Assembly: GCA_964642165.1 (NCBI GenBank)
Contig: CAZXOC010000003.1
Coordinates: 784 to 64,783 of the forward strand
Direction: 5' to 3'
DNA from: an uncultured Planctomycetaceae bacterium
GTDB lineage: Bacteria > Planctomycetota > Phycisphaerae > SM23-33
Length of the DNA: 64,000 nucleotides
Shown here: in pieces, positions 30,350-42,327 of the stretch
How the letters are laid out: every line of letters begins with the position of its first letter
How positions within the stretch are numbered: position 1 is the first letter of the stretch
The notes under the pieces: model-generated
The model's input: the letters and a program-made list of their open reading frames with translations, nothing else
The model's database searches: none
Told to the model about the DNA's origin: nothing
Made by a program: the position numbers and the translations under genes

Positions 30350-30412
30350 CGGCGCCTGCCGGCCCGCCGCGCCCGCGACTCGGCGCCCGCGCAACGGCCG
30401 ACGAGCCCGCTC

Positions 30413-32755
30413 TCAGACGGTCAGGCGCACGTAGAGGCTCGGCAGCACGCGCGGAAGCTGCCGGATGTCCGGCAGGATGACGAACCGCCGCCGGGGAAAC
30501 ATGATCTCCATGTCGGGAAGGCTGTTCTCCTCCGTCGAGATGCCGAACGTGTGGATCGTCTTGCGGTCGTTTTCCTCGCAGGCCATGCGGACGTCGTACT
30601 GGGCGTGGCGAGTGTTGGGGTCGTAGCGGTCGTCCATCGGCCGCCCGTCGGTGATGAGGATGATCAGGCGCTGCCTGGCGTCGACGCGGCCGAGGCGGAA
30701 GCCCGCGTGCCGCAGGGCGGGCCCGATCCGCGTGCAGTTCAGCGGGTACGCCGACAGGACGCGCCCGATGCTGTCTCGTCCCCACGCTTCGTCGAAGTCT
30801 TTGTAGACGAAAAACGCGCAGTTCTCCGGCCCGTTGGAGTGGAACCCGCAGATGCTGAAGCGGTCCCCCAGGCTCGCCAGCCCCTGCCCGAGGATCAGCG
30901 CGGCGTGCTTCTCGATCTCGATGATGCGTTTGCGGTCGGACAGCTCTTCCGCCGTCGAGCCGCTGGCGTCGAGGACGATCTCCACGGCCAGGTCGCGGCG
31001 GTTGATGCGGGGCTTCTCGTAGAAGCGGACCTTCGGGGAGGGCTCCTTGCGGCGCTGCACGAGGTAGTCGACCAGCAGGTCGGCGTTGATCTGCTCGCCT
31101 TCCTGGAGGTACTTCTCGCGGCGGGTCAGGTCCGGCTTGAGGCGCTCGAAGACGCGCCCGACGCGGCGGGCCTCGCTGGTGATGTCCGGCGGGATGGGCT
31201 GCTCGCCGGCCTGCTCGGGCACCTTCTCGTAGACGAAGCAGTAGTCGCGGTAGTAGTCGCCCTCCTCGTGGCTCCATTCGTCGTAGACGTAGCAGACCCG
31301 GGCCGCCTCGGCGCGATCCGCCTCCTCCTGCTCGCCCGAGCCCTCGCGGGCCTCGTCGGCTGCCTGGGCGGCCGCGTCCTCCCCGGCGCCCTCATCCCGG
31401 CGCCTGTGGTGCTGTTCCGCCGCACGCTTGAGATCAGCCACCAGGCTCCCACGCGGGGCCGCCGAAACGCCCCCGGGAAAGAGGAAGTCCGGCAGGAACG
31501 CGAACGGCCGAAGGAGATCGCCCGCCAGGCCCGGACAGTCCCGGGCGACCTGCTCGGCCAACTCGCCGTCGAGCTGCCGGACCGTGTCAAAGAAGTTCAC
31601 CGACCCGTCCGCCAGGCGCAGCAGCGCGGCGACGCCCGGGGCCTGTGCCGCATCGGACCTCGCCGCGTCATGGAACAGGCGCTCCGCCGCGGACGCCGGC
31701 GGGCGCCACCGGAACTCCTCCCGCAGGGCGAAGTCGATCAGCCGCCGGGAGCCCGGCCAGCGGGCCCGCACGCGACGCAGCACGCGCACGTACTCGGCGA
31801 TCTGGAAGAGGTTCAGGCGAAGCGAATCGCTCCCGACGACCTCCCGGCACGTGCGGTGGCCTTGCAGGCCGTGCACGCGGCAGAAGCTGTCCTCGGCGAT
31901 CATCCCCGCCGCGACCACGCTCGCCAGCAGGTACCACTTCCGGTTCACCGCCGCGTCGTCGAAGTAGCGGATGCGGCTGGGCACGTACAGCCACTTGTAG
32001 AGACATACCAGCGAGCAGCCGCGCTCGATCAGGTCGTCGGAGTCCAGCCGCCCCAGCTCGCAGACCTCGATCTCGCGCCCGGTGAGGGCCTTGAGCAGGG
32101 CCGACATGATCGGATGAACGTCGTCGAGGCGGCACTCCCGCGTGATGCGCAGGATGTACGTTTCGGACGTCTTGAGCCTGCCCTCCAGGAAGGCCAGGGC
32201 CTTGGGCTTGCTCCTGCGGAAGATCTCGAGGCCCGCGTCGATGTAGAGGCCGATCTCCTCGGGGCGCAGGCGGTCGATCAGGCGGCGGTAGCCCTTGATG
32301 AAGGCCACGGCGAGGTCATCGTCGGTTTCCCGCAGGCGGCGCGCGTGGGTGACGAGGTCGCGGACCTGGTCGGGGCGCTCTCCCAGCCCGCCCGTCCCCA
32401 GCGTGCGGAACAGCGTGATGCCGTAGTGCAGGCGGGCGTTGGCGAGTTCCTGGCCGAGGTCGACGATGTCGACGAAGACGCCGGGCAGGTCCAGCAGCCA
32501 GCGCATGCGCGGGTTGAGCGCCGCGAGGAATTCCTTCAGGACGTGGTCGAAGCAGCGCTGGTCGGCCTGCTTCATCAGCTCGAAGAAGCGCCGCGTGACC
32601 TCCTGTCGCTCCGGGCCGATGAGCCCCTGTCGCAGGAGCCCGTCGATCGCCCGGGCGAAGATCTCGCGGTAGCCCCAGCAGACGCTCCGCAGCGTGAAGC
32701 CGTGGTACCCGTCGCCGCCTCGCGCGGGCGGCGTGCTAGGGCTCGGCGGGTCCAT
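30413..32755 (-). CDS. CbbO/NorD-like protein with a C-terminal von Willebrand A (VWA) domain
   Basis: 780 aa. Long helical N-terminal region, acidic linker, C-terminal VWA with MIDAS DASGS (VLDASGSTAE) and ..LIILITDGRP.. Start overlaps the upstream AAA+ gene by 20 nt. Confidence 0.7.
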   Translation of the reverse strand: MDPPSPSTPPARGGDGYHGFTLRSVCWGYREIFARAIDGLLRQGLIGPERQEVTRRFFELMKQADQRCFDHVLKEFLAALNPRMRWLLDLPGVFVDIVDLGQELANARLHYGITLFRTLGTGGLGERPDQVRDLVTHARRLRETDDDLAVAFIKGYRRLIDRLRPEEIGLYIDAGLEIFRRSKPKALAFLEGRLKTSETYILRITRECRLDDVHPIMSALLKALTGREIEVCELGRLDSDDLIERGCSLVCLYKWLYVPSRIRYFDDAAVNRKWYLLASVVAAGMIAEDSFCRVHGLQGHRTCREVVGSDSLRLNLFQIAEYVRVLRRVRARWPGSRRLIDFALREEFRWRPPASAAERLFHDAARSDAAQAPGVAALLRLADGSVNFFDTVRQLDGELAEQVARDCPGLAGDLLRPFAFLPDFLFPGGVSAAPRGSLVADLKRAAEQHHRRRDEGAGEDAAAQAADEAREGSGEQEEADRAEAARVCYVYDEWSHEEGDYYRDYCFVYEKVPEQAGEQPIPPDITSEARRVGRVFERLKPDLTRREKYLQEGEQINADLLVDYLVQRRKEPSPKVRFYEKPRINRRDLAVEIVLDASGSTAEELSDRKRIIEIEKHAALILGQGLASLGDRFSICGFHSNGPENCAFFVYKDFDEAWGRDSIGRVLSAYPLNCTRIGPALRHAGFRLGRVDARQRLIILITDGRPMDDRYDPNTRHAQYDVRMACEENDRKTIHTFGISTEENSLPDMEIMFPRRRFVILPDIRQLPRVLPSLYVRLTV

Positions 32756-33614
32756 CGCCCGCGCCCTCCATCAGCTCGCCGAAGTAGAGCTTGACGATGT
32801 GGTTGATGGACTCGGCGACCTCGGCCTCTTCGGTGAGCGTCTGGGTGATGGCGGCGTTGCAGGCCTTCAGCGGGTCCAGGCCCGCCTTCATCAGCCGGCC
32901 GACGTAGACCAGCAGCCGCGTGCTGACCCCCTCGTCGAGGCCGAAGCCCTTCAGCTCCCGCGTCTTGGCGCCCATCTCGGCGAGTCGGCGGCCCTCGGCC
33001 TCCGACAACCCGGTCTCCGTTTGTATGATTCGCGACTCGACGTCGATCGCCGGGTGCGTGAAGGTCAGGCTGGCGAAGCGCTGCTTGGTGGAGTGCTTCA
33101 GGTCCTTGACGATGCTCTGGTAGCCCGGGTTGTAGCTGAGCACCATCATGAAGTCCGGCGCGGCGCGGATCACCTCGCCCGTCTTGTCGACGTAGAGGAT
33201 CCGCCGGTCGTCCGTCAGCGAGTGGATGATGACGGTGGTGTCCTTGCGGGCCTCCACGATCTCGTCGAGGTAGCAGATGCCCCCGTAGCGCACGGCGAGC
33301 GTCAGCGGGCCGTCCTGCCAGACCGTCTGCTCGTCCTTGAACAGGTACCGCCCGACGAGGTCCCCGGCCGTCAGGTCCTCGTGGCACGAGACCGTCACCA
33401 GCGGCAGATCCAGCACGTGGGCCATGTACTCGATGAACCGCGTCTTGCCGCAGCCGGTCGGGCCCTTGATGATCAAGGGGATGTCGCTGTCGAAGGCCGT
33501 CCGGAAGACCTCTTCCTCGTCGTTCTGGGGGATGTAGTTGGGCCGGGCCCGCACGCGGAACTGGTCGATCGTCTTCCGTGCGTCGCTGGTGGGTTGTGTC
33601 TTACGGTTCGTCAC
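32736..33614 (-). CDS. CbbQ/NorQ/MoxR-type AAA+ ATPase (AAA_5)
   Basis: Walker A GPTGCGKT, Walker B ICYLDEI, sensor motifs. About 292 aa if the GTG at 33614 is the start (no in-frame ATG; it lies 9 nt after the radical-SAM stop). The rest of the 580-aa track ORF is a spurious extension. Confidence 0.65.
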   Translation of the reverse strand: MTNRKTQPTSDARKTIDQFRVRARPNYIPQNDEEEVFRTAFDSDIPLIIKGPTGCGKTRFIEYMAHVLDLPLVTVSCHEDLTAGDLVGRYLFKDEQTVWQDGPLTLAVRYGGICYLDEIVEARKDTTVIIHSLTDDRRILYVDKTGEVIRAAPDFMMVLSYNPGYQSIVKDLKHSTKQRFASLTFTHPAIDVESRIIQTETGLSEAEGRRLAEMGAKTRELKGFGLDEGVSTRLLVYVGRLMKAGLDPLKACNAAITQTLTEEAEVAESINHIVKLYFGELMEGAGDGPAEP

Positions 33615-33622
33615 GATGCCAC

Positions 33623-34555
33623 CTATTCCGAGGCCGCTTCGGCCGCGCTGTAGTACACCTCGGCGCCCATCTGCGTCCCCACGAGCAGGCCCAGGCCGTC
33701 GAGCTTCTCCAGGTACTTCAGCACCTCGACCCGCCTCATGCTCAGGCCCTCGGCGACGTCGCGCACGCGGCAGGGGCGCCTGCGGAGCAGCGCGAGGACC
33801 TGCTGCTCGTCGACGTCGTCCGCCTCGGCGGCCTCGTCCTCGGTGGCCGAGTCCCAGATCACCTCCGCCGTCGGGTGGAACAGCTCGGCCAGCCGGCGGA
33901 GCTCCTCCCGAGGCACGGGGCGCGCGAAGTCCTCCGCGGGCGGGCGGGTCACCGTGTTCAACTGGACGCGGTCCGGGCGGATGGCCTCGACGCACTCGGC
34001 GATCTGCTCCACCTCCGACTCGATGCCCGTGTGCCCGCCCAGCAGCATCACCTCCAACCAGTACTCGCCGGGAAACTCGGCGCGGAAAGCTGCCAGGCCG
34101 CCGACGACCCGCTCGAACGACAGCCCCTCGGCCGGCCGATTGACGGCCTGGAACATGCCCTCGCCGCCGGCGTCGAGCGACGGGACGATCAGGTCGGCGC
34201 CCATCAACTCCGCACGGACGTCCTCGCGCCACAGCAGCGAGCCGTTGGTCAGGACCGCCACGGGCGTTTCGCCCATTGCCTGGATGCCCTCGATCAGCTC
34301 GCCGGTCCGGGAATACAGCGTCGGCTCGCCCGAGCCGCTCAGCGTGACGTAGTTGGCCCCGCACCCGATGCGGGCCTCCACGTCGGCCAGCACGTCCGCC
34401 AGCGGCACCCACTCCTTTCGCTCGGTCGTCCGGCACGTCGTGCGCCCGAGCTGGCAGTAGATGCAGTCGTACGTGCACGTCTTGAACGGCACCAGGTCGA
34501 CGCCCAGCGACCGGCCGAGCCGCCGCGAGGGTACGGGGCCAAAAACGTGACTCAT
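33623..34555 (-). CDS. Radical SAM protein (COG0731-like, NifB/MoaA-related Fe-S enzyme)
   Basis: N-terminal GPVPSRRLGRSLGVDLVPFKTCTYDCIYCQ (CxxxCxxC cluster motif), SGSGEPT glycine-rich SAM motif, 310 aa. Confidence 0.75.
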   Translation of the reverse strand: MSHVFGPVPSRRLGRSLGVDLVPFKTCTYDCIYCQLGRTTCRTTERKEWVPLADVLADVEARIGCGANYVTLSGSGEPTLYSRTGELIEGIQAMGETPVAVLTNGSLLWREDVRAELMGADLIVPSLDAGGEGMFQAVNRPAEGLSFERVVGGLAAFRAEFPGEYWLEVMLLGGHTGIESEVEQIAECVEAIRPDRVQLNTVTRPPAEDFARPVPREELRRLAELFHPTAEVIWDSATEDEAAEADDVDEQQVLALLRRRPCRVRDVAEGLSMRRVEVLKYLEKLDGLGLLVGTQMGAEVYYSAAEAASE

Positions 34556-34594
34556 CGCGAGATCCCGTCGAGTTCGGTGGCGCGGACGCCCGCG

Positions 34595-34834
34595 TCAGCC
34601 GTCCAGGTCACACTGGCCGCAGGGCGTGTCGCGCCCGCAGCAGGTCGTATCGCGCCCGCAGCGGATTGCCGAGGAACCGCCGGCGCCTTTCACGATCACG
34701 GCACCGCCCGTGCCGATCAGGCGCCGGACGCGCCCGCCGCACTCGCTGCACGTCCGGACCGGCTTGTCGGTCATGTTCTGGAACTGCTCGAAGCGCCGGC
34801 CGCACTTCGTGCACTCGTAGTCATATGTCGGCAT
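34595..34834 (-). CDS. FmdB-family zinc-ribbon protein
   Basis: MPTYDYECTKCGRRFE...PVRTCSECGG (CxxC...CxxC zinc ribbon), 79 aa with a Gly/Cys-rich tail. Confidence 0.6.
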   Translation of the reverse strand: MPTYDYECTKCGRRFEQFQNMTDKPVRTCSECGGRVRRLIGTGGAVIVKGAGGSSAIRCGRDTTCCGRDTPCGQCDLDG

Positions 34835-34890
34835 TCTTCCTGCTCTCCTGCGCTCGCGCGTCGGCTGCCGGTCGCCCGCCGGGCGCGAGG

Positions 34891-36144
34891 TCAGTGGTCA
34901 CAGAGGTTCCCGCCCGTCGTCAGCGTGCCGCCGAGGTAGGCCGCGACCAGTTCCGCCGGTTCCTGCGCCGAGGCGCCCACGACGACCGCGATCCCGCTGG
35001 CGGCGAAGAGCTGCTGGGCCCGGCTGCCCATCCCGCCGGCGATGATCACCTCGGCGCCCATTTCGTGAAGCCAGCGGGGCAGCGCGCCGGGCTCGTGCCC
35101 CGGCGGCGTGTGCTTCGTCGTCTCAAGGACTTGCCCGGTCGACGCGTCCACCTCGATGATGGCAAATTCCTCGCAGTGCCCGAAGTGGGCACTCAGCCGC
35201 CCCGCCGCCAAGGGAATCGCGATCTTCATGCGATGGTTCTCCTGCTGGGGTTTCTCCAGGTCGGTTGATCCCCCCTCCTTCGGCTCGTCCGGTGCGATCT
35301 TGCGCACGATCTCAGCGAAGGCGGCCGCGGCCGCCGAACCGTCAGATGCCTCGATGAACGGCGCGCCTGCATCGCCCGCGGCGACGATGGCCGGATCGAT
35401 GGGGATGCGCCCGAGGAACGGCACGCCCGCCTCGCGGGCCAGCGCCTCGCCCCCGCCGGACCGGAACAGGTCCACGCGGTGGCCGCACTGCGGGCAGACG
35501 TACCCGCTCATGTTCTCCACGATGCCCGCCACCGGCAGCGACAGCGCCCGGCAGAACGACACGCAGCGGCGCACGTCGGAGATCGCCAGGTCCTGCGGCG
35601 TGGTGACGACGACGGCGCCGGCGGGCTGACCGACGAGCTGGGCGACCGTGAGCGGCTCGTCGCCCGTGCCCGGCGGGGAGTCGATGACGAGGTAGTCCAG
35701 CCGCCCCCACGTCACGTCGGTGAGGAACTGGCGGATCGCGCCGAACTTGCGAGGCCCGCGCCAGATGATCGCCTCGTCGCCGTTGGCCAACAGGAACCCG
35801 ATGGACATGACGGCGAGATGGTCATCGACCTGGACGGGCACCATCTCCCCCTCCTTGAGGCCGACCGGCCGGCCCGTCAGCCCCAGCAACTGCGGGATGC
35901 TCGGCCCGTGCACGTCGACGTCGAGGAGCCCGACCTTCCTGCCCGCGCGGGCCAGTGCCACGGCCAGATTCGCCGCCACCGTGCTCTTGCCCACGCCCCC
36001 CTTGCCCGACAGCACCAGCAGCTTCTGCCCGATGCGTTCCATGCGGCTGCGCAGCATCAACTGCTGCCTCTCGCGTTCGGCCGGGTCCGGGCCCTGCGCC
36101 GACGGGCGCGAAGGCGGGGGCTGTTTCGGAGACGAGTCCGTCAT
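34891..36144 (-). CDS. Mrp/ApbC/NBP35-family Fe-S cluster carrier ATPase fused to a C-terminal NifX/NafY-type (Nitro_FeMo-Co, PF02579-like) domain
   Basis: RBS AGGAG 11 nt upstream of the ATG at 36144 (MTDSSPKQ..). Walker A VLSGKGGVGKST, ferredoxin-like CPQCGHRVDLF Cys pair. C-terminal MKIAIPLAAGRLSAHFGHCEEFAIIEVD...IIAGGMGSRAQQLF matches dinitrogenase FeMo-cofactor-binding-domain proteins. Confidence 0.75.
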   Translation of the reverse strand: MTDSSPKQPPPSRPSAQGPDPAERERQQLMLRSRMERIGQKLLVLSGKGGVGKSTVAANLAVALARAGRKVGLLDVDVHGPSIPQLLGLTGRPVGLKEGEMVPVQVDDHLAVMSIGFLLANGDEAIIWRGPRKFGAIRQFLTDVTWGRLDYLVIDSPPGTGDEPLTVAQLVGQPAGAVVVTTPQDLAISDVRRCVSFCRALSLPVAGIVENMSGYVCPQCGHRVDLFRSGGGEALAREAGVPFLGRIPIDPAIVAAGDAGAPFIEASDGSAAAAAFAEIVRKIAPDEPKEGGSTDLEKPQQENHRMKIAIPLAAGRLSAHFGHCEEFAIIEVDASTGQVLETTKHTPPGHEPGALPRWLHEMGAEVIIAGGMGSRAQQLFAASGIAVVVGASAQEPAELVAAYLGGTLTTGGNLCDH

Positions 36145-36175
36145 GTGATTTACAACTCCTGGGGGCCCGAGGTCC

Positions 36176-37087
36176 TCAAGTTTCATCGAACAGCCGGGCC
36201 GAGACGGCTTGCCAGAGCCCGCGCACATCGGACGCGGCCCCATCGCGGGCGTACTCCACGATGGACTGCCTGTGGACCTGGGCTTCCGTCACGCCCGGAT
36301 CATACCGCACGCGTCCCAAGGCCGACACGCCTCGGTCCGCCGCCGCCGCCTCGACCTGGGCGGCGACGTCGTCGTTCAGGTCCCACTTGTTCACGCACAC
36401 CGCCGCCGGGATGCCGAAGTGCTTCGCCAGGTCCGCGACGCGAGAGAAGTCGTGCAGGCCGCTCAGCGTCGGCTCCGTCACGATCAACACGAAGTCCGCC
36501 GCCGAGATCGAGGCGATCACCGGGCAGCCGATCCCCGGCGAGCCGTCGATCAGGACGAGCTTCTTGTGGTTCCGGTCGGCGATCTTCTTGGCCTCCGTCC
36601 GCACGAGACTGACCAGCTTGCCGGAGTTCTCCTCGGCCACGCCGAGCTTCGCGTGCACCATCGGCCCGTGCCGCGTGTCCGAGACGAACCACTCGCCGTT
36701 CACGACCGGCGCGAACTCGACGGCGTCGTACGTGCAGAAGTACGCGCAGACACCGCAGCCCTCGCAGGCGATCGGGTCGACGCGGAACGTCCGGTCGACG
36801 CGGCCGTTGCCGGGGCCGTCATAGAAGACGGCGTCGAACCGGCACACCTCCTCGCACTTCCCGCAGGCCGTGCAGTGACCCGGCATGATCCGCGCACGCG
36901 AGCCGCCCGAGAACTTCTCCCGCCGGCGGACCGTCGGGGCAAGCACGAGGTGCAGGTCGGCCGCGTCCACGTCGCAGTCCGCCAGCACCACCTCTTCCGC
37001 CAGCGCCGCGAAGGACGCGACCAGAGACGTCTTGCCCGTGCCCCCCTTGCCGCTGATGACGACCAGTTCCTTCATCCGATCAGACAC
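36176..37087 (-). CDS. MinD/CooC/ParA-like P-loop ATPase with an inserted 2x[4Fe-4S] ferredoxin domain
   Basis: Deviant Walker A ISGKGGTGKTS. Cys motifs CTACGKCEEVC and CEGCGVCAYFC. Second nucleotide-binding half IDGSPGIGCP. Confidence 0.7.
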   Translation of the reverse strand: MSDRMKELVVISGKGGTGKTSLVASFAALAEEVVLADCDVDAADLHLVLAPTVRRREKFSGGSRARIMPGHCTACGKCEEVCRFDAVFYDGPGNGRVDRTFRVDPIACEGCGVCAYFCTYDAVEFAPVVNGEWFVSDTRHGPMVHAKLGVAEENSGKLVSLVRTEAKKIADRNHKKLVLIDGSPGIGCPVIASISAADFVLIVTEPTLSGLHDFSRVADLAKHFGIPAAVCVNKWDLNDDVAAQVEAAAADRGVSALGRVRYDPGVTEAQVHRQSIVEYARDGAASDVRGLWQAVSARLFDET

Positions 37088-37105
37088 CTCCGGGGTGCCG
37101 GCCGA

Positions 37106-37963
37106 TCATGGCTCAGCCGTGCCCGTCAGGTCGCGCAGTTGCGACAGCAGTTTCTCGAACAGCGCCGCGTAGCCGTCGACGGCGCGGCAGGCCAGCTCGC
37201 CGCGCGAGTACGCCTCGGCGATCCGCCGGTCGTCGGGAATCTCCGCCAGCACGTCGATGCGATGCGTCCGGCAGAATGCCGTCGTCTCGGCGTCCCCGAC
37301 GTCCGCGCGGTTGATCACCACGCCGAACGGCATCTTCAACGCCCGCGTCATCTCGACCGCCAGCTTCAGGTCGTTCAGGCCGAACGGCGTCGGCTCCGTC
37401 ACGAGGAGCACGTAATCGCAGCCGCGCACGCTCTCGATCACCGGGCAGGACGTCCCCGGCGGGACGTCGTAGATCATGACGTCCCCGTCGGAGGCGGCCG
37501 CCTTCGTCGCCCGGATCAGCGGCGGGCTCATTACTTCGCCCACGTTCAGCAGCCCCTGAACGAACTGCACGTCGCCGGCGCGCCCGGTCTCGACGCGCCC
37601 GGTCACGCGCTGCGTTTCCGTGATGGCGTTCACGGGGCAGACCAGCCAACAGCCGCCGCACGAATGGCACAGCTCGGGGAACACGAGCACCTTCTCGCCC
37701 ACGCAGACGATCGCGCTGTACTGACAGATCTCGCCACACTTGCCGCAGAGGATGCACGTGTCCGCCGCCACCTCGGGCACGCTGCCGCCCACGGGCTGAC
37801 TGGTCGCGATCTCCGGCTTGAGGAACAGGTGGCCGTTGGGTTCCTCGACGTCGCAGTCGAGATAGCCGACGCTCCGGCCCGCCCCGGCGGCCACGAACGC
37901 GAGGTTGGTGGCCACCGTGGTCTTGCCGGTGCCGCCCTTTCCGCTGGCGACGGCAATTCTCAT
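37106..37963 (-). CDS. MinD/CooC/ParA-like P-loop ATPase with inserted 4Fe-4S ferredoxin domain (paralog)
   Basis: VASGKGGTGKTT; CILCGKCGEIC and CHSCGGCWLVC; YDVPPGTSCP. Adjacent to and 19 nt from its paralog. Confidence 0.7.
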   Translation of the reverse strand: MRIAVASGKGGTGKTTVATNLAFVAAGAGRSVGYLDCDVEEPNGHLFLKPEIATSQPVGGSVPEVAADTCILCGKCGEICQYSAIVCVGEKVLVFPELCHSCGGCWLVCPVNAITETQRVTGRVETGRAGDVQFVQGLLNVGEVMSPPLIRATKAAASDGDVMIYDVPPGTSCPVIESVRGCDYVLLVTEPTPFGLNDLKLAVEMTRALKMPFGVVINRADVGDAETTAFCRTHRIDVLAEIPDDRRIAEAYSRGELACRAVDGYAALFEKLLSQLRDLTGTAEP

Positions 37964-37993
37964 AGCTGACTCATCTGTTCGGGGGCTGTGGCG

Positions 37994-38581
37994 TCAGCGG
38001 TTTTGGCCGCCACCGCCCATGCCGCCGCCACCGCCCATGCCGCCGCCGCGGCCCATGCCGCCGCCACGACCCATGCCGCCGCCACGACCCATGCCGCCGC
38101 CGCGGCCCATGCCGCCGCCGCGTCCCATACCGCCGCCGCCCATGCCGCCGCCCATGCCCGGCGTGCCGCCGGGCGGCATGGGCTGCTGGGCGGGCGGGGC
38201 CTGGGCGGCCCCGGGCTGGGCGATGCCGAAGTGGCTCGGCACGTTCGGCTGATCGGTGGCCTGAAGCTGGTCGCTCTTGAACTGCTCCACCACCGCCAAG
38301 ACCGGCCCCATGCAGCCCACGATGACGCCAATCCCCGCCGCGCTCAACGTCTGGTAGGCATTGGGCCCGCAGTTGCCGGTCAGCAGCACCTGTACGCCCT
38401 TTTCGGCCATCAACTGCGCCGACTGGATCCCCGCGCCGCTGCCGGCAGTGATGCTCGGGTTCTCGATCGCCTCGTGCTCCATCGTGTCTGTCTCCACGAT
38501 CAGGAAGCACGGGCACCGCCCGAACCGGGGGTCAACGTCGGCGTCCATCGACGGAGCCGTAGCTGTCACCGCGATCTTCAT
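37994..38581 (-). CDS. NifB/NifX-type (Nitro_FeMo-Co) domain protein with a C-terminal Gly/Met-rich repeat tail
   Basis: MKIAVTATAPSMDADVDPRFGRCPCFLIVETD...GVQVLLTGNCGPNAYQTL (PF02579-like), followed by (GGGMGR)n: ...MGGGMGGGGMGRGGGMGRGGGMGRGGGMGRGGGMGRGGGMGGGGGMGGGG, encoded by an 18-nt DNA repeat at about 38030-38150. Confidence 0.65.
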   Translation of the reverse strand: MKIAVTATAPSMDADVDPRFGRCPCFLIVETDTMEHEAIENPSITAGSGAGIQSAQLMAEKGVQVLLTGNCGPNAYQTLSAAGIGVIVGCMGPVLAVVEQFKSDQLQATDQPNVPSHFGIAQPGAAQAPPAQQPMPPGGTPGMGGGMGGGGMGRGGGMGRGGGMGRGGGMGRGGGMGRGGGMGGGGGMGGGGQNR

Positions 38582-38666
38582 TTGCTGTCTCCTTGCCCGG
38601 CCGCGCGGCGCAGCCTGGGCGTTCTGTTGTGCCGTCCGTGCGTCTCGGGAAACCCCGCCGCCGGCG

Positions 38667-39053
38667 TCACGGTTCCTTCGCCTGGCCCTGAAGCTCCTCG
38701 ATACGCTTCTTGATCCCGTCGAGCGCGTCCTCGAAGTACTCCACCTGGCCCTGGAGCGCCGCGAGCTCTTGCTCCTTGCTCATGGCCGCCCCTGCCGGTG
38801 CCGCCGGCCAGGCGCCCGCCGGCATGGGCGCGGCGCCTCCGTAGGCCGGCCAGCCCGCCGCGGCACGCTGCCAGCCAGGCATCCCGGTTGCGTAGAACCA
38901 GTTCCGCCGGCCTCGCCCGCCGCCGCCCCAGCCGAAGCCTCGCCCCCCCACGGGGTTCATGTACCCGGGCATGGGATAGCCCGCGCAGTACCCGGCCGCA
39001 CGTCCTGTCATGGGACCCATTCCCCCCGGGCCCGTTCCATCACCACCTGGCAT
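38667..39053 (-). CDS. DUF5320-like protein (Gly/Pro/Met-rich N-terminus plus C-terminal coiled coil)
   Basis: MPGGDGTGPGGMGPMTGRAAGYCAGYPMPGY... N-terminus typical of DUF5320. C-terminal SKEQELAALQGQVEYFEDALDGIKKRIEELQ coiled coil. Confidence 0.55.
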   Translation of the reverse strand: MPGGDGTGPGGMGPMTGRAAGYCAGYPMPGYMNPVGGRGFGWGGGGRGRRNWFYATGMPGWQRAAAGWPAYGGAAPMPAGAWPAAPAGAAMSKEQELAALQGQVEYFEDALDGIKKRIEELQGQAKEP

Positions 39054-39067
39054 CTTCTTGCTCCTTG

Positions 39068-39952
39068 TCAGTTTGCTTGCGGGGACCCGTTCACCGGTGC
39101 CCGGGCCGATCGCCGCGCGACCAGGCTATTCACCTCGCAGCCCAAGTCTTGGGCGATCACCGGACACTTCGCCTTAAGAATGAAGAAGATCTCCCTCGGC
39201 ACGTCGCTGAGGGTTTCGTAGTTGCCTTGGCCCTTGGCGACGATCAGGTCGGCCCGGTCGAACCGGCGGCGGAAGGCCTCGCTGCAATCGCCCAGGATCG
39301 TCCCCGGCGCGTCGCTGCCGTTGTCGATCACCTCGACCAGGCCGGTCAGTCCGGCGGCCTCGGCGTCGGCTCGCGTCGCGTCGTTGATGACCGGTGCGCC
39401 CTTGACGGCGACGGCGACCTTTTCGGTCGGAAGCCGCTCCAGCAGCAGCCGGTCGAAGACCAGCTCTCCCGCGTTGTCGCCCAGGTAGAGGACCTCCTCC
39501 GCCCGCGCCACGGCGCTGCCGAAGCCGTCCAGGTCCGCCTCCAGCGGGGCGGCCAGCGCGTGCGCCACGCCGTCCCGGACCTTGGCTTCGTCCATCTCGC
39601 CATCGACGCCGAAGTCGATCACGTTGCCCGCGATGGCCAGGCGGACGGCCGTCTCCAACGGGGCCGGCGAGGCGTCCACCTTCGCCTTGAGTCCGGGATA
39701 CATCGCCAGCGCAACGCGCGTGAAGTGGTCCTTGATGTCGCGATACGGGTCGTTTACGCCGGTCAGTCGGCGGATCATGCGCTGGATCCGCTGGCCCATA
39801 GCCGGGGGAGACTGCCGGAGGTCCATCTCCGCCGCGGCGCGGAGCACCTCCCGGAGCACCTGCTCGTGGACGGCCTCGTCGTCGGTCACCAGTCGGGCCG
39901 CGTCCAGGGCCTGACGGACGAAACACGGGATGCAGTCGAAAAACGTCCTCAT
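39068..39952 (-). CDS. DUF89 (ARMT1-like, metal-dependent damage-control phosphatase fold) protein
   Basis: MRTFFDCIPCFVRQ N-terminus, conserved DNAGE motif (LYLGDNAGELVFD) and KGQGNYE motif (LIVAKGQGNYETL). Confidence 0.65.
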   Translation of the reverse strand: MRTFFDCIPCFVRQALDAARLVTDDEAVHEQVLREVLRAAAEMDLRQSPPAMGQRIQRMIRRLTGVNDPYRDIKDHFTRVALAMYPGLKAKVDASPAPLETAVRLAIAGNVIDFGVDGEMDEAKVRDGVAHALAAPLEADLDGFGSAVARAEEVLYLGDNAGELVFDRLLLERLPTEKVAVAVKGAPVINDATRADAEAAGLTGLVEVIDNGSDAPGTILGDCSEAFRRRFDRADLIVAKGQGNYETLSDVPREIFFILKAKCPVIAQDLGCEVNSLVARRSARAPVNGSPQAN

Positions 39953-39961
39953 GCCTGTTCC

Positions 39962-40324
39962 TTACAGCCAGTGGCCTTCCACGTCGGGCTTGTCGACGAG
40001 CGACAGCCGGCCGGCCTTCAGGGCCTCCACCGCGTCTCGGACCGAGCCCTGCGCACCGACGTAGACCTTGACGCCGCCGGCCTGAAGCGTACGGAACGCC
40101 TTCGGGCCGACGTGGCCCGTCACGATCGCCTCCGCGCCCAGGTCGATGACGTTCTGCGCCGCCTGGATGCCGGCGCCCTGGAGGGCGTTGAGGTTCTGCG
40201 AGTTGTCGTGCGCCGTGGCCTGGCCCGTGTCGGTGTCCACGAGCACGAACGCCTTGGCCCGCCCGAATCGCGGGTCGACGGGGCTTGCCAAGTCGGTCCC
40301 TTGAGCCGTGATTGCCGCTTTCAT
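39962..40324 (-). CDS. NifB/NifX-type (Nitro_FeMo-Co) single-domain protein
   Basis: MKAAITAQGTDLASPVDPRFGRAKAFVLVDTDTGQ...AIVTGHVGPKAFRTLQAGGVKVY. The start at MKAAI is in frame 15 codons into the track ORF, whose upstream ATG is at 40369. Confidence 0.65.
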   Translation of the reverse strand: MKAAITAQGTDLASPVDPRFGRAKAFVLVDTDTGQATAHDNSQNLNALQGAGIQAAQNVIDLGAEAIVTGHVGPKAFRTLQAGGVKVYVGAQGSVRDAVEALKAGRLSLVDKPDVEGHWL

Positions 40325-40394
40325 CTTCCATATCTCCAGCAATAGTTTGCTGTTGCGCCGCTGCCTCACGCCGCCCGGGGCGGCGCCTTGCCGG

Positions 40395-40775
40395 CTAGAG
40401 GCCGCCGCGCCAGCCGCGACCGCGACGCCCGCCGCCGCGCTGCCGGCGGCCGAAGCCCCGACCGAAGCCCATGCCGCCCGAAGCCGCGCCGACCACCGGC
40501 CCGCCCTGGATGGCCAGGGCCTGCCCGTCCACGAGGGCGCGGGCGACCTTCGATCGCCCCGACGCCAGGATCCGCGTCACGGTCGGGCGGGAGACGCCCA
40601 TCCTCGCCGCCACCGCCTCCTGGTCCAGGCCCTCGCCGTCGACCAGGCGGATCGCCTCGAACTCGTCCAGCCCCAGGGTCGTCCACTGAAGCTGGCGTGC
40701 GGGCACGCCAGCGGGCTTGTAGACCGTCACGCCGGGCCGGCCGGCGATTATGCGTTGTTTCGGGGGGCGGGACAT
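40395..40775 (-). CDS. DUF134 (UPF0251) family predicted DNA-binding regulator
   Basis: MSRPPKQRIIAGRPGVTVYKPAGVP...LGLDEFEAIRLVDGEGLDQEAVAARMGVSRPTVTRILASGRSKVARAL (sigma-70 region-4-like HTH). Gly/Arg-rich tail. First gene behind the promoter/operator. Confidence 0.7.
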   Translation of the reverse strand: MSRPPKQRIIAGRPGVTVYKPAGVPARQLQWTTLGLDEFEAIRLVDGEGLDQEAVAARMGVSRPTVTRILASGRSKVARALVDGQALAIQGGPVVGAASGGMGFGRGFGRRQRGGGRRGRGWRGGL

Positions 40776-40782
40776 CGCGGCC

Positions 40783-40830
40783 TCATTATGAACCTACGTT
40801 CATAATAGCATCGGCTGGAAATCAGGTCAA
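40783..40830 (-). promoter_or_regulatory. Sigma-70-like promoter (TTGACC-N17-TATTAT) with an overlapping perfect inverted repeat ATTATGAAC-N4-GTTCATAAT (candidate operator) and a GAGG RBS
   Basis: Minus strand reads TTGACCtgatttccagccgatgcTATTATGAACgtagGTTCATAATGAGGccgcgATG. The -35 lies at plus 40825-40830 and the -10 at 40802-40807. The 9-bp arms are at 40785-40793 and 40798-40806. The ATG of the DUF134 gene is at 40775. Confidence 0.5.
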
Positions 40831-41348
40831 GCGCTGCGGAAAAAAGACTTGGTTCAAGTCAGGGCAACGTTCTCGCATCTGGCCTCCGGGCTTGGCGAAA
40901 CGCTATATCTTTATTATAATGTTGCTTACGACTAACGTGGCTGGTGCAGGCTCCCTCGAAGGCGTTCCCCACTCGGAAACAGGGCCGACAAGCGTTGATC
41001 CAATAAACCGGAACTCCGGAATCCGTGCGACGCAAAGCTCTTTCAGAAAGAACCTTACGTCTGCCCGCTACGGGCTGGACCGTTACGTGGACGGCGCGTT
41101 CGTCACTCTGAGGCGCCCGACAGGTCCAGGATCTCCTACTGCTTTATATGAGTTTGCGGGGGGCGAAATGTTTTGTATAGGGGTCGGGGAAAGGACATAA
41201 TGAAATAGAGATATAAAGTTCTGGATAGCAAAGGAGTATGGCGTTTTCCCTATTATTTTAATGGGCAAATGAACCTACACAAAACGACACATTGGTTGAT
41301 CTCGTCGCCATCGAATCGCCCATTGGCGAATGAAGATTTGCGGCCCGG

Positions 41349-41786: not shown

Positions 41787-41880
41787 GGGCGGCTCCGAGT
41801 CACCGGGCCGGGCGCGGGGCGTGCGCCGGCCGCGGCGGGGGGATCGCCCGGCCCGGCACGCGGGCAGGATCACCCGACGG

Positions 41881-42327
41881 TCAGCCCTCGGGCTGCTCCA
41901 CGATTCCCGACCAGTAGCCCTTCAGCAGCGTGACGATGCCGATGAGCTGCTCGATGTCCACCGGCTTGGTGATGTAGGACTTCGCGCCCAGGTCGAAGGT
42001 CTGGAGGATGTCGGCGTCCTCGTGAGACACCGTCAGGATGACGACCGGGATCTGCTTGAAGTCCTGGTCGGCGGCGATCTCGGCGAGGACCTCGCGCCCG
42101 TCCTTCCTGGGCAGGTTCAGGTCCAGCAGGATCAGGTCCGGGCGGGGCGCATCGGCGTGGGGGTCTTCTCGGCGCAGGAAGGCCATGGCCTCGATCCCGT
42201 CCTGGACGATGTGGAGGTGGTTGGCGATCCGGCCGGAGTTCAGCGCCTCCTGCGTCAGGCGGACGTCGCCGGCATTGTCCTCGACCAGGAGGATCTCGGC
42301 CGGCCTGCCCATCATGTGCTCAGTCAT
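41881..42327 (-). CDS. Receiver-only response regulator (CheY-like), paralog
   Basis: [56 protein letters not shown] overlaps the histidine-kinase stop (ATGACTGA). Confidence 0.75.

What the first reader, a model, noticed from the sequence alone, without database searches (positions are those of the whole stretch)
30413..40830. Twelve-gene, single-promoter cluster that looks like an uncharacterised metallocofactor assembly/insertion system
Seen in sequence: twelve co-directional minus-strand genes. Their gaps range from -20 to +86 nt, with several start/stop overlaps, behind one strong promoter/operator. The order is: DUF134 HTH regulator; NifX-like (Nitro_FeMo-Co) protein; DUF89 (DNAGE/KGxxNYE motifs); DUF5320; a second NifX-like protein with a (GGGMGR)n tail; two MinD/CooC-like P-loop ATPases each carrying a 2xCxxCxxCxxxC ferredoxin insert; an Mrp/ApbC Fe-S carrier fused to a third NifX-like domain; an FmdB zinc ribbon; a COG0731-like radical SAM enzyme; a CbbQ/NorQ AAA+ ATPase; and a CbbO/NorD-like VWA protein. 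From established knowledge: NifX/NafY/NifB-C domains bind FeMo-co precursors. Mrp/NBP35 and CooC/MinD-type ATPases deliver Fe-S or Ni clusters. CbbQO/NorQD AAA+/VWA pairs remodel client enzymes and insert metal (Rubisco activation, Fe insertion into NorB). The DUF134 / NifX-like / MinD-ferredoxin core recurs in anaerobes without a known function. Inference: here that core is joined to a radical SAM enzyme and a NorQD-type insertion module in a Planctomycete-like genome with no nitrogenase, NOR or Rubisco nearby. This suggests a self-contained pathway that builds and inserts a complex Fe-S or heterometal cofactor into an unknown client.
Basis: partly seen in the sequence, partly recalled or inferred. 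Interest (0 to 1): 0.85.

Follow-up and report, generated by a model that had tools for sequence, protein, structure and literature searches.

The report
Expanded Orange-Protein (orp) operon with AAA+ chaperone
This twelve-gene operon is a Planctomycete version of the Desulfovibrio "Orange Protein" metal-cluster complex, whose function is still unknown, and it is joined to a radical SAM enzyme and a NorQ/NorD-like ATP-driven chaperone, a linkage that recurs in related anaerobes and gives a testable clue to what the complex does.

Summary
Twelve co-directional minus-strand genes (30413-40775) lie behind one strong sigma-70 promoter and a palindromic operator. Every domain call holds.

The Mrp-NifX fusion passes NCBI's MrpORP equivalog cutoff. 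Both NifX-like proteins hit the D. gigas Orange Protein structure best. The function of ORP is still unresolved in the literature.

The accessory modules appear undescribed:
- **AAA+/VWA pair.** In 78 genomic loci of this pair, orp-type genes are the only protein families that recur nearby. They occur in 18 of 47 loci with enough flank: 18 of 30 PVC loci and 0 of 17 non-PVC loci. At least six gene orders are seen.
- **VWA protein.** It is NorD-like only in its C-terminal ~300 residues. Its 470-residue N-terminal domain is family-specific.
- **Radical SAM enzyme.** Together with a Cys-tailed zinc ribbon, it is independently an orp-cluster accessory.

Best reading: an expanded orp operon in which a NorQD/CbbQO-type motor remodels an Orp component or its unknown client for metal-sulfur cluster transfer.

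Verdict: a new variant of a known kind. Interest is moderate to high.

The parts
40802..40830 (-). Sigma-70-type promoter: TTGACC (-35), 17-nt spacer, TG-extended TATTAT (-10)
   Evidence: 10 of 12 matches, and the only minus-strand hit in 11.4 kb. Sequence read directly. No sigma-54 -24/-12 match lies upstream.
40785..40806 (.). Candidate operator: perfect 9-4-9 palindrome ATTATGAAC-GTAG-GTTCATAAT overlapping the -10 box, about 10 nt upstream of the DUF134 start codon
   Evidence: unique in the window. Similar palindromes (TTATGAGC-ATAT-GCTCA.. and TTATGCAC-GATG-GTTCATAA) sit just after the -10 box upstream of DUF134 genes in L034, L144 and L158. Binding by DUF134 is inferred.
40395..40775 (-). 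DUF134 helix-turn-helix protein (126 aa) with an RGG-rich C-terminal tail. Occupies the position of orp7. Probable autoregulator.
   Evidence: Pfam PF02001, 80.8 bits. The operator motif is conserved upstream of DUF134 genes elsewhere.
39962..40324 (-). NifX-fold (Nitro_FeMo-Co / MTH1175-like) protein, Orange Protein (Orp8) type
   Evidence: Pfam PF02579, 80.9 bits. Best PDB hit is 2WFB, the D. gigas ORP, at E = 3.8e-21.
39068..39952 (-). DUF89 / ARMT1-like metal-dependent phosphatase-family protein (294 aa)
   Evidence: Pfam PF01937, 227.6 bits. The NCBIfam damage-control phosphatase models score below cutoff. Recurs in orp-linked loci.
38667..39053 (-). DUF5320 small Gly-rich / coiled-coil protein (128 aa), in the position of orp5
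   Evidence: Pfam PF17253, 75.7 bits. It lies next to the MinD-ferredoxin genes in divergent OrpR-type loci. Equivalence to Orp5 is inferred from gene position only.
37994..38581 (-). Second NifX-fold Orange-Protein-type protein (195 aa) with a (GGGMGR)n tail encoded by an 18-bp tandem repeat at 38006-38152
   Evidence: Pfam PF02579, 86.4 bits. PDB 2WFB at E = 9.5e-21. Tandem Repeats Finder gives 8.3 copies. The L001 allele is 201 aa.
37106..37963 (-). MinD/ParA-type P-loop ATPase with an inserted 2x CxxCxxCxxxC ferredoxin module (Orp3/Orp4 type)
   Evidence: Pfam CbiA, ParA and Fer4. Motifs read in the translation. PMC6345978 describes Orp3/Orp4 as carrying two [4Fe-4S] motifs.
36176..37087 (-). 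Second MinD/ParA-ferredoxin ATPase (Orp3/Orp4 type). The start is GTG at 37087 or ATG at 37075.
   Evidence: Pfam CbiA and Fer4_7. 30% identical to its neighbour.
34891..36144 (-). MrpORP (Orp9): Mrp/NBP35 Fe-S carrier ATPase fused to a NifX-like domain. The CPQC cluster-bridging motif is present.
   Evidence: NCBIfam NF041136 MrpORP equivalog, 529.7 bits against a cutoff of 450, full length. Pfam ParA 327 bits plus Nitro_FeMo-Co 73.8 bits.
34595..34834 (-). FmdB-type zinc ribbon (79 aa) with a Cys-rich tail (CGRDTTCCGRDTPCGQC)
   Evidence: Pfam PF09723, 61.1 bits. The tail motif CGRDxPCCGRDTPCDxxPC is conserved in homologues directly upstream of the radical SAM gene in many loci.
33623..34555 (-). 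Radical SAM enzyme (CX3CX2C at C27/C31/C34) with a C-terminal ArsR-like winged helix. It belongs to no curated subfamily.
   Evidence: Pfam PF04055. NCBIfam gives only weak MoaA, viperin and TYW1 hits plus HTH_metalloreg. Invariant residues come from alignment A2. Its neighbourhoods are rich in orp genes.
32736..33614 (-). CbbQ/NorQ-type MoxR AAA+ ATPase (292 aa)
   Evidence: Pfam AAA_5 109.6 bits plus CbbQ_C 87.7 bits. PDB CbbQ 5c3c at E = 1e-95 and NorQ 9qhd at E = 3.5e-87.
30413..32755 (-). 780-aa adaptor: a family-specific all-alpha N-terminal domain (about residues 20-450) followed by a NorD-type VWA domain with finger and intact MIDAS. Overlaps the CbbQ gene by 20 nt.

Best explanation
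The locus is an expanded orp (Orange Protein complex) operon of an uncultured, anaerobic Planctomycete.

The core is homologous to the Desulfovibrio ORP system:
- two NifX-fold Orange-Protein-type carriers, which hold a labile metal-sulfide cluster non-covalently;
- two MinD-type ATPases, each with two [4Fe-4S] sites (Orp3/4);
- a DUF5320 protein in the orp5 position;
- MrpORP, which in Desulfovibrio loads Fe-S clusters onto Orp3/4/8 in vitro;
- a DUF134 helix-turn-helix protein in the orp7 position.

Control here appears to differ from Desulfovibrio. Instead of sigma-54 with the redox sensor OrpR, the whole unit probably depends on one sigma-70 promoter whose -10 box overlaps a palindrome. 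The first gene product, DUF134, probably binds that palindrome as an autorepressor (inferred).

Three accessory modules are attached:
- a DUF89 phosphatase-family protein;
- a zinc ribbon with a Cys-rich tail, paired with a radical SAM enzyme that carries a winged helix;
- a CbbQ/NorQ AAA+ hexamer with a NorD-type VWA adaptor.

Proposed mechanism, by analogy with NorQD and CbbQO. The adaptor's VWA finger plugs the AAA+ pore. Its MIDAS site and its family-specific N-terminal domain grip a target. That target is either an Orp component or the still-unknown apo-client of the ORP complex. ATP hydrolysis then twists the target open so that a metal-sulfur cluster carried by the NifX-fold or Mrp proteins can be inserted or released.

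Shown here: homology, operon structure and recurrent gene linkage. Inferred: physical coupling, the identity of the client, the nature of the cluster, and the chemistry of the radical SAM enzyme.
For: Identity of the core:
- MrpORP equivalog above cutoff.
- Both NifX-like proteins hit Orange Protein 2WFB best.
- The two MinD-ferredoxin proteins and DUF5320 and DUF134 are confirmed by Pfam.
- Related loci reproduce the Desulfovibrio layout: (MinD-Fd, MinD-Fd, DUF5320) divergent from a Cys-containing PAS sigma-54 activator, followed by NifX and MrpORP. This matches orp5-4-3 / orpR / orp7-8-9 in PMC8359166.

One transcription unit:
- A single promoter, gaps of 85 nt or less, a 20-nt CbbQ/VWA overlap, and no internal terminator-like site.

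Coupling of CbbQ-VWA to orp:
- Unbiased clustering of all ORFs in 78 CbbQ-VWA loci found orp-type genes and their regulator to be the only specific recurrent neighbour families.
- 18 of 47 loci with at least 5 kb of upstream flank carry an orp core gene. About 0.5% is expected by chance. The binomial p is 3e-29, or 2e-7 if only six independent events are counted.
- There are at least six different gene orders. In a Brocadiaceae MAG (L034) CbbQ-VWA sits in the middle of the orp genes.
- Linked and unlinked loci are interleaved in the VWA tree.

Chaperone features:
- CbbQ at E = 1e-95 to solved CbbQ and NorQ structures.
- NorD-type VWA with finger, invariant MIDAS and a conserved C-terminus.
- The NorQD mechanism is taken from PMC13036017 and PMC9976466. 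The latter notes that the unrelated N-domains of NorD and CbbO bind different targets.

Radical SAM and zinc ribbon:
- Of 25 metagenome loci of the radical SAM family with flank on both sides, 13 carry MinD-Fd, 12 MrpORP, 16 an MBL-fold gene and 10 the zinc ribbon.

Operator:
- A similar palindrome follows the -10 box upstream of DUF134 genes in three other loci.
Against: - No experiment links CbbQ-VWA or the radical SAM enzyme to Orp proteins. Gene linkage can reflect shared regulation under low redox potential rather than physical interaction.
- The CbbQ-VWA pair stands alone, with no orp gene within 10 kb, in 29 of 47 loci. This includes all 17 non-PVC loci with enough flank (Anaerolineae, Spirochaetota, Moduliflexota and one Clostridiaceae MAG). 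Its target therefore need not be encoded by orp genes.
- None of the 80 orp-rich radical SAM loci has CbbQ-VWA, so the modules are separable.
- The published suggestion for ORP is a role in cell division, not cofactor insertion (PMC6345978, PMC8359166).
- The Mo-Cu cluster of purified Orange Protein may not be physiological (own knowledge).
- The radical SAM enzyme has no auxiliary-cluster cysteines of the NifB type, and its structure model was poor.
- No client was identified.
Confidence: 0.6

Rival explanations
1. Co-regulated neighbours without functional coupling. The orp core, the radical SAM / zinc-ribbon pair and the CbbQ-VWA pair are separate anaerobiosis-induced functions. They have drifted into one operon in some PVC bacteria. 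CbbQ-VWA serves a different client encoded elsewhere.
For: CbbQ-VWA occurs alone in 29 of 47 loci, including all non-PVC loci. The radical SAM / orp loci never contain CbbQ-VWA. The radical SAM family also occurs in unrelated contexts (L085 and L087).
Against: Orp genes and their regulator are the only specific families that recur near CbbQ-VWA. The linkage survives at least six rearrangements and spans several PVC lineages (Planctomycetota including Brocadiaceae and Phycisphaerae, Kiritimatiellae, Lentisphaerae/Victivallales and Verrucomicrobiota), including an embedded arrangement. No alternative conserved client gene was found.
Confidence: 0.2
2. The ORP proteins are mainly a MinD/ParA-like positioning or cell-division system, as first proposed for Desulfovibrio. 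Their Fe-S clusters act as redox sensors. The AAA+/VWA pair would then remodel a cytoskeletal or divisome-type assembly rather than insert a cofactor.
For: Published observations report morphological defects when orp expression is lost and polar localisation of MrpORP (PMC6345978, PMC8359166). The ATPases belong to the MinD/ParA class.
Against: Three NifX-fold cluster-binding domains, an Fe-S carrier, a radical SAM enzyme and a metal-insertion-type chaperone are hard to explain by positioning alone. No min or div genes are nearby. The Desulfovibrio authors themselves call the role unclear (PMC8359166).
Confidence: 0.1
3. Thiometallate or metal(loid) buffering and detoxification. In sulfidic habitats the NifX-fold proteins would sequester Mo/W/Cu-sulfide species. 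The accessory enzymes would process or export them.
For: Purified Orange Protein carries a non-covalent [S2MoS2CuS2MoS2] cluster (cited in PMC6345978). The radical SAM enzyme ends in an ArsR/SmtB-like winged helix. One homologue sits next to an ArsP_2 permease. An FmdE-family gene occurs in one locus.
Against: There is no transporter in the operon. No Moco riboswitch or any other Rfam element was found. Desulfovibrio regulates orp by redox potential, not by metal (PMC8359166). The evidence for this reading comes from single loci.
Confidence: 0.08
4. A cryptic nitrogenase-type FeMo-co, or nitrogenase-like, cofactor pathway.
For: NifX-fold domains, a radical SAM enzyme and SIMIBI-class Fe-S ATPases resemble NifX/NafY, NifB and NifH respectively.
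Against: No NifD/K/E/N/B/H equivalog was hit. The radical SAM enzyme lacks the cysteines for NifB-type auxiliary clusters. No nitrogenase-like genes occur in the scanned part of the window or as recurrent neighbours.
Confidence: 0.02

Closest known systems
Orange Protein (ORP) complex and orp operons of Desulfovibrio vulgaris Hildenborough (Orp3/4/5, Orp7/8/9 = DVU2103-2109, regulator OrpR)
   Same: The same core protein families are present: MrpORP at equivalog level, Orange-Protein-type NifX-fold proteins, and two MinD-type ATPases with 2x[4Fe-4S]. DUF5320 and DUF134 sit in the orp5 and orp7 positions. The distribution is anaerobe-restricted. Related PVC loci even keep the divergent orp2 / orpR / orp1 layout.
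   Different: All genes are fused here into one co-linear operon under a sigma-70 promoter with a DUF134-type operator. There is no OrpR and no sigma-54 promoter. There are two free NifX-fold proteins, one with a (GGGMGR)n tail. Added genes are DUF89, a Cys-tailed zinc ribbon, a radical SAM enzyme with a winged helix, and a CbbQ/NorD-like pair.
NorQ/NorD (FeB insertion into cNOR) and CbbQ/CbbO (Rubisco activase): the CbbQ/GvpN/NorQ branch of MoxR AAA+ ATPases with VWA partners
   Same: The AAA+ subunit is very close to solved CbbQ and NorQ structures (E = 1e-95 and 3.5e-87). The partner has a NorD-type C-terminal VWA domain with finger, a complete MIDAS and a conserved C-terminus. The two genes are adjacent and overlapping.
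   Different: The 470-residue N-terminal domain shows no detectable similarity to the NorD proteins in the PDB or on plasmids, and canonical NorD and CbbO are absent from its 100 matching clusters. No NOR or Rubisco is nearby. The hosts are anaerobic heterotroph-like PVC, Anaerolineae and Spirochaetota MAGs. Its recurrent neighbours are orp genes.
Nitrogenase cofactor assembly proteins (NifB, NifX/NafY, NifH, NifEN)
   Same: Both use NifX-fold cluster carriers, a radical SAM enzyme and Fe-S-containing SIMIBI ATPases.
   Different: There are no Nif equivalogs. The radical SAM enzyme lacks NifB-type auxiliary-cluster ligands. There is no scaffold or catalytic NifEN/DK-type protein.
CoxD/CoxE/CoxF maturation of the Mo-S-Cu site of aerobic CO dehydrogenase (own knowledge, not tested here)
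   Same: A MoxR-class AAA+ ATPase and a VWA protein are dedicated to assembling a Mo/Cu/S metal centre. Orange Protein binds a Mo-Cu-S cluster.
   Different: CoxD belongs to a different MoxR branch. No CO dehydrogenase genes are present here. The resemblance is conceptual only.
Mrp/NBP35/ApbC and CooC-type P-loop metallochaperones
   Same: They share the deviant Walker A motif, the CxxC bridging-cluster motif in MrpORP, and ATP-dependent Fe-S or Ni delivery as the family function.
   Different: Here the Mrp domain is fused to a NifX-like domain. The MinD-type paralogues carry an inserted two-cluster ferredoxin module that classical Mrp and CooC proteins lack.

Membership tests
ORP (Orange Protein) complex gene cluster | MrpORP: Mrp/NBP35 P-loop domain fused to a Di-Nase (NifX-like) domain | tested here: met
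   NCBIfam NF041136 equivalog, 529.7 bits against a cutoff of 450, covering profile positions 1-365. The CPQC motif is present in the translation.
ORP (Orange Protein) complex gene cluster | Orange-Protein-type (Orp8) NifX-fold small protein | tested here: met
   Both candidates hit PDB 2WFB (D. gigas ORP) as best match, at E = 3.8e-21 and 9.5e-21. Pfam PF02579 is above cutoff.
ORP (Orange Protein) complex gene cluster | Two paralogous MinD-like ATPases, each with two [4Fe-4S] ferredoxin motifs (Orp3/Orp4) | tested here: met
   Pfam CbiA/ParA plus Fer4 families in both proteins. The 2x CxxCxxCxxxC motifs are read in the translations. The paralogues are about 30% identical.
ORP (Orange Protein) complex gene cluster | Small Orp5 protein and an Orp7 gene in the operons | tested here: inconclusive
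   DUF5320 and DUF134 occupy the corresponding positions in the window and in DvH-like divergent loci. No Desulfovibrio sequence was available for direct comparison. Orp5 is described as homologous to a [2Fe-2S] protein (PMC6345978), whereas the window's DUF5320 has a single Cys.
ORP (Orange Protein) complex gene cluster | Sigma-54 promoter with the redox-sensing activator OrpR | tested here: not met
   There is no OrpR homologue in the window and no -24/-12 match upstream. A sigma-70 promoter with a palindrome is present instead. OrpR-like activators are present in 12 related loci. This is a regulatory feature of the Desulfovibrio cluster, not of the proteins.
ORP (Orange Protein) complex gene cluster | The proteins form a physical complex, and MrpORP transfers Fe-S clusters to Orp3/4/8 | not testable with these tools
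   This is known only for Desulfovibrio (PMC6345978).
CbbQ/NorQ-type MoxR AAA+ ATPase | AAA_5 core plus the CbbQ/NirQ/NorQ C-terminal domain, Walker A/B motifs, and close similarity to solved CbbQ and NorQ structures | tested here: met
   Pfam 109.6 and 87.7 bits. PDB 5c3c at E = 1e-95 and 9qhd at E = 3.5e-87. GPTGCGKT and the DE Walker B motif are read in the translation.
NorD/CbbO-type VWA adaptor | C-terminal VWA domain with a complete MIDAS (DxSxS...T...D), a pore-inserting finger and a conserved C-terminus | tested here: met
NorD/CbbO-type VWA adaptor | N-terminal target-binding domain homologous to that of NorD or CbbO | tested here: not met
   Residues 1-476 have no match to NorD in the PDB or on plasmids. 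phmmer of residues 1-470 against 1.84 billion representatives finds only 100 clusters, which are proteins of about 770-820 aa, shorter fragments and a few weak longer hits; the ten looked up come only from metagenomes or MAGs. CbbO itself was not compared directly.
NorD/CbbO-type VWA adaptor | Genetic association with the client (norCB or Rubisco genes) | tested here: not met
   There are no NOR or Rubisco genes in the scanned part of the window, and none among the recurrent neighbour families of the 78 loci.
NifB-type radical SAM cofactor synthase | Radical SAM cluster plus Cys/His ligands for two auxiliary [4Fe-4S] (K) clusters | tested here: not met
   Only C27, C31 and C34, plus C262 (in the winged helix) and near-invariant C188, are conserved. 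There is no NifB hit in NCBIfam.
TYW1 / COG0731 radical SAM | Equivalog-level match to TYW1 | tested here: not met
   TIGR03972 scores 28.3 bits against a cutoff of 318. The PDB TYW1 hits are only E = 2e-3. JGI's 'wyosine synthetase' label on homologues is a COG-level name.

The most novel reading that the evidence does not exclude
The ORP complex, enigmatic for some two decades, is a metal-sulfur cluster delivery machine. In PVC bacteria its insertion step is powered by a dedicated CbbQ/NorQ-type AAA+ motor. The motor's NorD-like adaptor carries a previously unrecognised N-terminal client-binding domain. This would define a third client class for CbbQ/NorQ-type chaperones, after Rubisco and cNOR. 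It would also give a handle for fishing out the unknown ORP client: pull down with the N-domain. The Cys-tailed zinc ribbon and its radical SAM partner would act as a further cluster-handling or cluster-modifying step.
Probability: 0.35. Interest if true: 0.8.

Novelty: new variant of a known kind. Interest (0 to 1): 0.6.

Why it matters
The role of the ORP complex is still called unclear. It is conserved in strict anaerobes, expressed only at low redox potential, and binds unusual metal-sulfide clusters. In several PVC lineages its genes are repeatedly wired to a NorQD/CbbQO-type remodelling motor and to a radical SAM enzyme. That points away from a purely cell-division role and towards ATP-driven cofactor insertion. 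It also supplies concrete reagents for finding the client: the adaptor's N-domain, the zinc-ribbon tail and the DUF134 operator. For the AAA+ field it adds a NorD/CbbO-like adaptor subfamily with a new targeting domain, known so far only from uncultured anaerobes.

Tried and rejected
- **Nitrogenase / FeMo-co pathway:** rejected. There are no Nif equivalogs and no NifB-type auxiliary ligands.
- **Known client in the window:** none among the ORFs scanned.
- **Sigma-54 / OrpR control in this window:** not found.
- **Riboswitch or other RNA element in 30000-42000:** none, including no Moco riboswitch.
- **Radical SAM structure:** the AF2 model was too poor (pLDDT 60.5) to justify a fold search. 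Sequence and profile searches against the PDB gave only weak viperin, TYW1 and SmtB hits.
- **Fievet et al. 2011 (PMC3133258), the original comparative orp paper:** not held. I could not check whether it already lists radical SAM or AAA+ neighbours.
- **Literature searches:** four searches of the held library, combining Orange Protein/orp, DUF134, DUF5320 or NifX with CbbQ, NorQ, NorD, MoxR or DUF89, found no paper that connects them.
- **The window's palindrome as an exact motif in other loci:** no exact match. Related but non-identical palindromes were then found by direct inspection.
- **Names for distant N-domain homologues:** none informative.

Full report
**Observation.** The region 30413-40830 contains twelve co-directional minus-strand ORFs. 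The same twelve genes were called independently on identical metagenome contigs (ENA ERZ25073477 NODE_579 and two JGI samples: L001-L003).

With the L001 gene starts, the gaps are 70, 9, 14, 85, 30, 30, 31, 56, 39, 8 and -20 nt. The only minus-strand sigma-70-like promoter in 11.4 kb is TTGACC-17-TATTAT at 40830-40802. Shuffles give 0.4 sites. A perfect palindrome, ATTATGAAC-GTAG-GTTCATAAT (40785-40806), overlaps the -10 box and is unique in the window. No minus-strand terminator-like site lies within the operon.

**What the core is.** The Mrp-NifX fusion scores 529.7 bits on the NCBIfam equivalog model "iron-sulfur cluster carrier protein MrpORP", whose cutoff is 450. Both free NifX-like proteins have the Desulfovibrio gigas Orange Protein structure (2WFB) as their best PDB match, at E of about 1e-21.

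In Desulfovibrio vulgaris Hildenborough the ORP complex consists of:
- Orp3 and Orp4, two paralogues each with two [4Fe-4S] motifs;
- Orp5;
- Orp8, the Orange Protein type, which binds a non-covalent Mo-Cu-sulfide cluster;
- Orp9, also called MrpORP.

These are encoded by the divergent operons orp5-4-3 and orp7-8-9, which flank the sigma-54 activator OrpR. MrpORP transfers Fe-S clusters to Orp3/4/8 in vitro. Expression requires a low redox potential. [quoted passage not shown]

**Regulation differs here.** The window has no OrpR homologue and no -24/-12 element upstream. It has the sigma-70 promoter and the palindrome instead.

DUF134 genes in three other loci have related palindromes upstream. 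These are a Brocadiaceae MAG (L034) and two metagenome contigs (L144 and L158). The palindromes are TGAGCATATGCTCA, TTATGCAC-GATG-GTTCATAA and ATTATGAGCATATGCTTATAAT. Each lies immediately after a good -35/-10 pair and 10-25 nt before the start codon. I infer that DUF134 is an autoregulatory repressor that binds a TTATGARC-N4-GYTCATAA operator.

**Is the AAA+/VWA pair part of the system?** The 780-aa VWA protein has more than 160 full-length homologues at 50-72% identity. A scan of species-representative genomes returned 78 loci. All are from MAGs of Planctomycetota, Kiritimatiellia, Lentisphaerota, Verrucomicrobiota, Anaerolineae, Spirochaetota, Moduliflexota, Sumerlaeota and one Clostridiaceae. 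In nearly all loci that retain upstream sequence, a CbbQ gene sits directly upstream.

I clustered all ORFs of these loci without prior labels. Apart from the pair itself and its shadow ORFs, the recurrent families were:
- DUF89, MrpORP, NifX-fold, MinD-ferredoxin and DUF5320;
- a Cys-containing PAS sigma-54 activator of the OrpR type (12 loci);
- an MBL-fold hydrolase (10 loci);
- a zinc-finger hotdog thioesterase, usually directly upstream of CbbQ (9 loci);
- the radical SAM enzyme (7 loci).

The only other recurrent clusters were generic ABC-ATPase and response-regulator domains.

Among the 47 loci with at least 5 kb of upstream flank, 18 carry an orp core gene within 10 kb: 18 of 30 PVC loci and 0 of 17 non-PVC loci. 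The chance expectation is about 0.5%. The binomial p is 3e-29, or 2e-7 if only six independent events are counted.

At least six gene orders occur:
- the co-linear order of the window (also L007, L011 and L078);
- the Desulfovibrio-like divergent order, extended by CbbQ-VWA (L016, L033, L035, L053, L055, L067, L074 and L075);
- CbbQ-VWA embedded between DUF134-DUF5320-NifX and MinD-Fd-MinD-Fd-MrpORP in the Brocadiaceae MAG (L034);
- OrpR-CbbQ-VWA-NifX-MrpORP in a Kiritimatiellae MAG (L013);
- other orders in L017, L025 and L029.

Linked and unlinked loci are interleaved in a neighbour-joining tree of the VWA proteins. This is strong evidence of selection for linkage, which is the usual signature of functional coupling. 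The many stand-alone pairs mean that coupling to orp is not obligatory at the level of gene order.

**What kind of AAA+/VWA pair is it?** The ATPase is very close to solved CbbQ and NorQ structures (E = 1e-95 and 3.5e-87). The partner aligns with NorD only over residues 477-773. The MIDAS residues D596, S598, S600, T675 and D703 and the C-terminal residues are invariant in 20 homologues.

phmmer of residues 1-470 against 1.84 billion cluster representatives finds just 100 clusters. They are proteins of about 770-820 aa, shorter fragments and a few weak longer hits, and the ten I looked up come only from metagenomes or MAGs. Canonical NorD and CbbO are therefore not detectably related in this domain.

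The NorQD literature assigns target binding to the N-domain and MIDAS, and motor coupling to the finger and the C-terminus (PMC13036017, PMC9976466). This is therefore a new adaptor subfamily of a known motor type, with an unknown target.

**The radical SAM enzyme and zinc ribbon.** The radical SAM protein has the CX3CX2C motif and a C-terminal ArsR/SmtB-like winged helix. It matches no curated subfamily. The best NCBIfam hits (MoaA, viperin, TYW1, W-maturase) all lie far below their cutoffs. It lacks conserved cysteines for NifB-like auxiliary clusters.

The family is large and highly conserved, at about 60% identity across Planctomycetota. In 80 metagenome loci, 25 have at least 2.5 kb on both sides. 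Of those 25, 16 carry the MBL-fold gene, 13 MinD-Fd, 12 MrpORP, 10 the zinc ribbon and 6 the thioesterase. None has CbbQ-VWA. A Pirellulales MAG has NifX, zinc ribbon and radical SAM next to an OrpR-type activator (L086).

The zinc-ribbon proteins share a conserved Cys-rich tail, CGRDxPCCGRDTPCDxxPC. The tail could be a small cluster-binding site or the substrate of the radical SAM enzyme.

The radical SAM / zinc-ribbon (/MBL) set is thus a second, separable orp accessory module. The window, L007, L011 and L078 combine both modules with orp core genes, and several other loci (L008, L017, L025, L042) carry both with a partial set.

**Mechanism.** Established for homologues:
- Fe-S loading by MrpORP;
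- non-covalent metal-sulfide binding by the Orange Protein;
- finger-in-pore coupling and ATP-driven twisting by NorQD, which allows metal insertion into cNOR.

Inferred here: the CbbQ hexamer and its adaptor act on an Orp component, or on the unknown ORP client, to open it for insertion or release of a metal-sulfur cluster. DUF134 sets expression through the operator. The radical SAM / zinc-ribbon pair and DUF89 carry out an accessory modification or ligand-processing step.

I put 0.9 on "expanded orp operon", about 0.65 on functional coupling of CbbQ-VWA with ORP, and about 0.35 on the specific insertion mechanism.

**Rivals.** The alternatives considered are:
- co-regulated but functionally independent modules;
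- a MinD-like positioning or division role;
- thiometallate or metal buffering;
- a cryptic Nif-like pathway.

The last is rejected at the sequence level. The others are not excluded.

**Context.** The scanned part of the window holds no nitrogenase, NOR, Rubisco or hydrogenase. The neighbours are a PQQ/BamB-like beta-propeller, a GH9 glycosidase, a histidine kinase with two response regulators, a sulfatase, DUF4159 giants and a separate MoxR ATPase. No Rfam element lies in 30000-42000. Base composition is uniform at about 70% GC, so nothing suggests a recent island.

**Novelty and limits.** Searches of the held literature found no paper connecting Orange Protein/orp with CbbQ, NorQ, NorD, MoxR or DUF89. 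The 2011 paper that first compared orp clusters could not be read.

The finding is a new variant of a known kind. The core is known. The NorD-like adaptor subfamily, its recurrent linkage to orp genes in PVC bacteria, the radical SAM / zinc-ribbon accessory module and the DUF134 operator appear undescribed.

All of the evidence is comparative. No interaction, metal content or transcript was measured.

Noticed in passing
window 38006-38152 (also 40395-40480 and 38950-39053): Three proteins of the operon carry Gly/Arg/Met-rich low-complexity tails: the DUF134 C-terminus (GGMGFGRGFGRRQRGGGRRGRGWRGGL), the DUF5320 N-terminus, and the (GGGMGR)n tail of the second NifX-like protein. The last is encoded by an 18-bp tandem repeat (8.3 copies). 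Its copy number differs in the otherwise near-identical contig L001 (201 aa against 195 aa). A shared RGG-like tail could mediate co-assembly.
   Followed up: partly
window 40785-40806; L034, L144 and L158 upstream of their DUF134 genes: A related palindrome (about TTATGARC-N4-GYTCATAA) sits just after the -10 box upstream of DUF134 genes in four independent loci. This is a candidate operator for the uncharacterised DUF134 (UPF0251) family.
   Followed up: partly
window 34595-34660; zinc-ribbon genes upstream of the radical SAM gene in L007, L092, L099, L103, L117, L120 and others: FmdB-type zinc ribbons next to the radical SAM gene share a conserved Cys-rich C-terminal motif, CGRDxPCCGRDTPCDxxPC. 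It may be a small metal-cluster site or the substrate of the radical SAM enzyme.
   Followed up: partly
window 40846-41348: A non-coding spacer of about 490 bp, less GC-rich than its surroundings, separates the upstream response-regulator gene from the orp promoter. It contains a terminator-like hairpin (40846-40860, minus strand) and a plus-strand promoter-like site (TTGGCG-17-TATAAT, 40892-40920). There is no Rfam match and no convincing ORF.
   Followed up: partly
window 41349-44749: A PAS/HAMP histidine kinase and two single-domain response regulators lie directly upstream on the same strand. The arrangement is the same on L001. A regulatory link to the orp operon was not tested.
   Followed up: no
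window 15744-22477 and 46268-48559: There is a second, unrelated AAA+ system: a MoxR AAA_3 ATPase (16388-17554, minus strand) next to a DUF3592 protein. Close by are two large DUF4159 proteins (17527-22477, plus strand). Another DUF4159 protein lies at 46268-48559.
   Followed up: no
window 51778-52902: A DUF362 protein with an inserted 2x[4Fe-4S] ferredoxin module. It is another Fe-S protein of unknown function and a possible Fe-S client in the neighbourhood.
   Followed up: no
window 58613-63998: Two adjacent large BlaR1/M56-peptidase fusion proteins. One carries HlyD-like domains and the other a secretin domain.
   Followed up: no
L085 8001-9986; L051 15588-16259: A close homologue of the radical SAM enzyme is followed by an ArsP_2-family permease in one long contig. 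An FmdE-family (Mo/W formylmethanofuran dehydrogenase operon) protein lies near CbbQ-VWA in a Victivallales MAG. Both are weak hints of a metal(loid) or Mo/W connection.
   Followed up: no
L016, L028, L033, L035, L046, L067, L074, L075, L078 (directly upstream of CbbQ in most): A hotdog-fold (4HBT) thioesterase with an N-terminal CxxC zinc-finger-like motif lies upstream of CbbQ in nine loci, directly adjacent in eight. It may form a three-gene module with CbbQ-VWA. It is absent from the window.
   Followed up: partly
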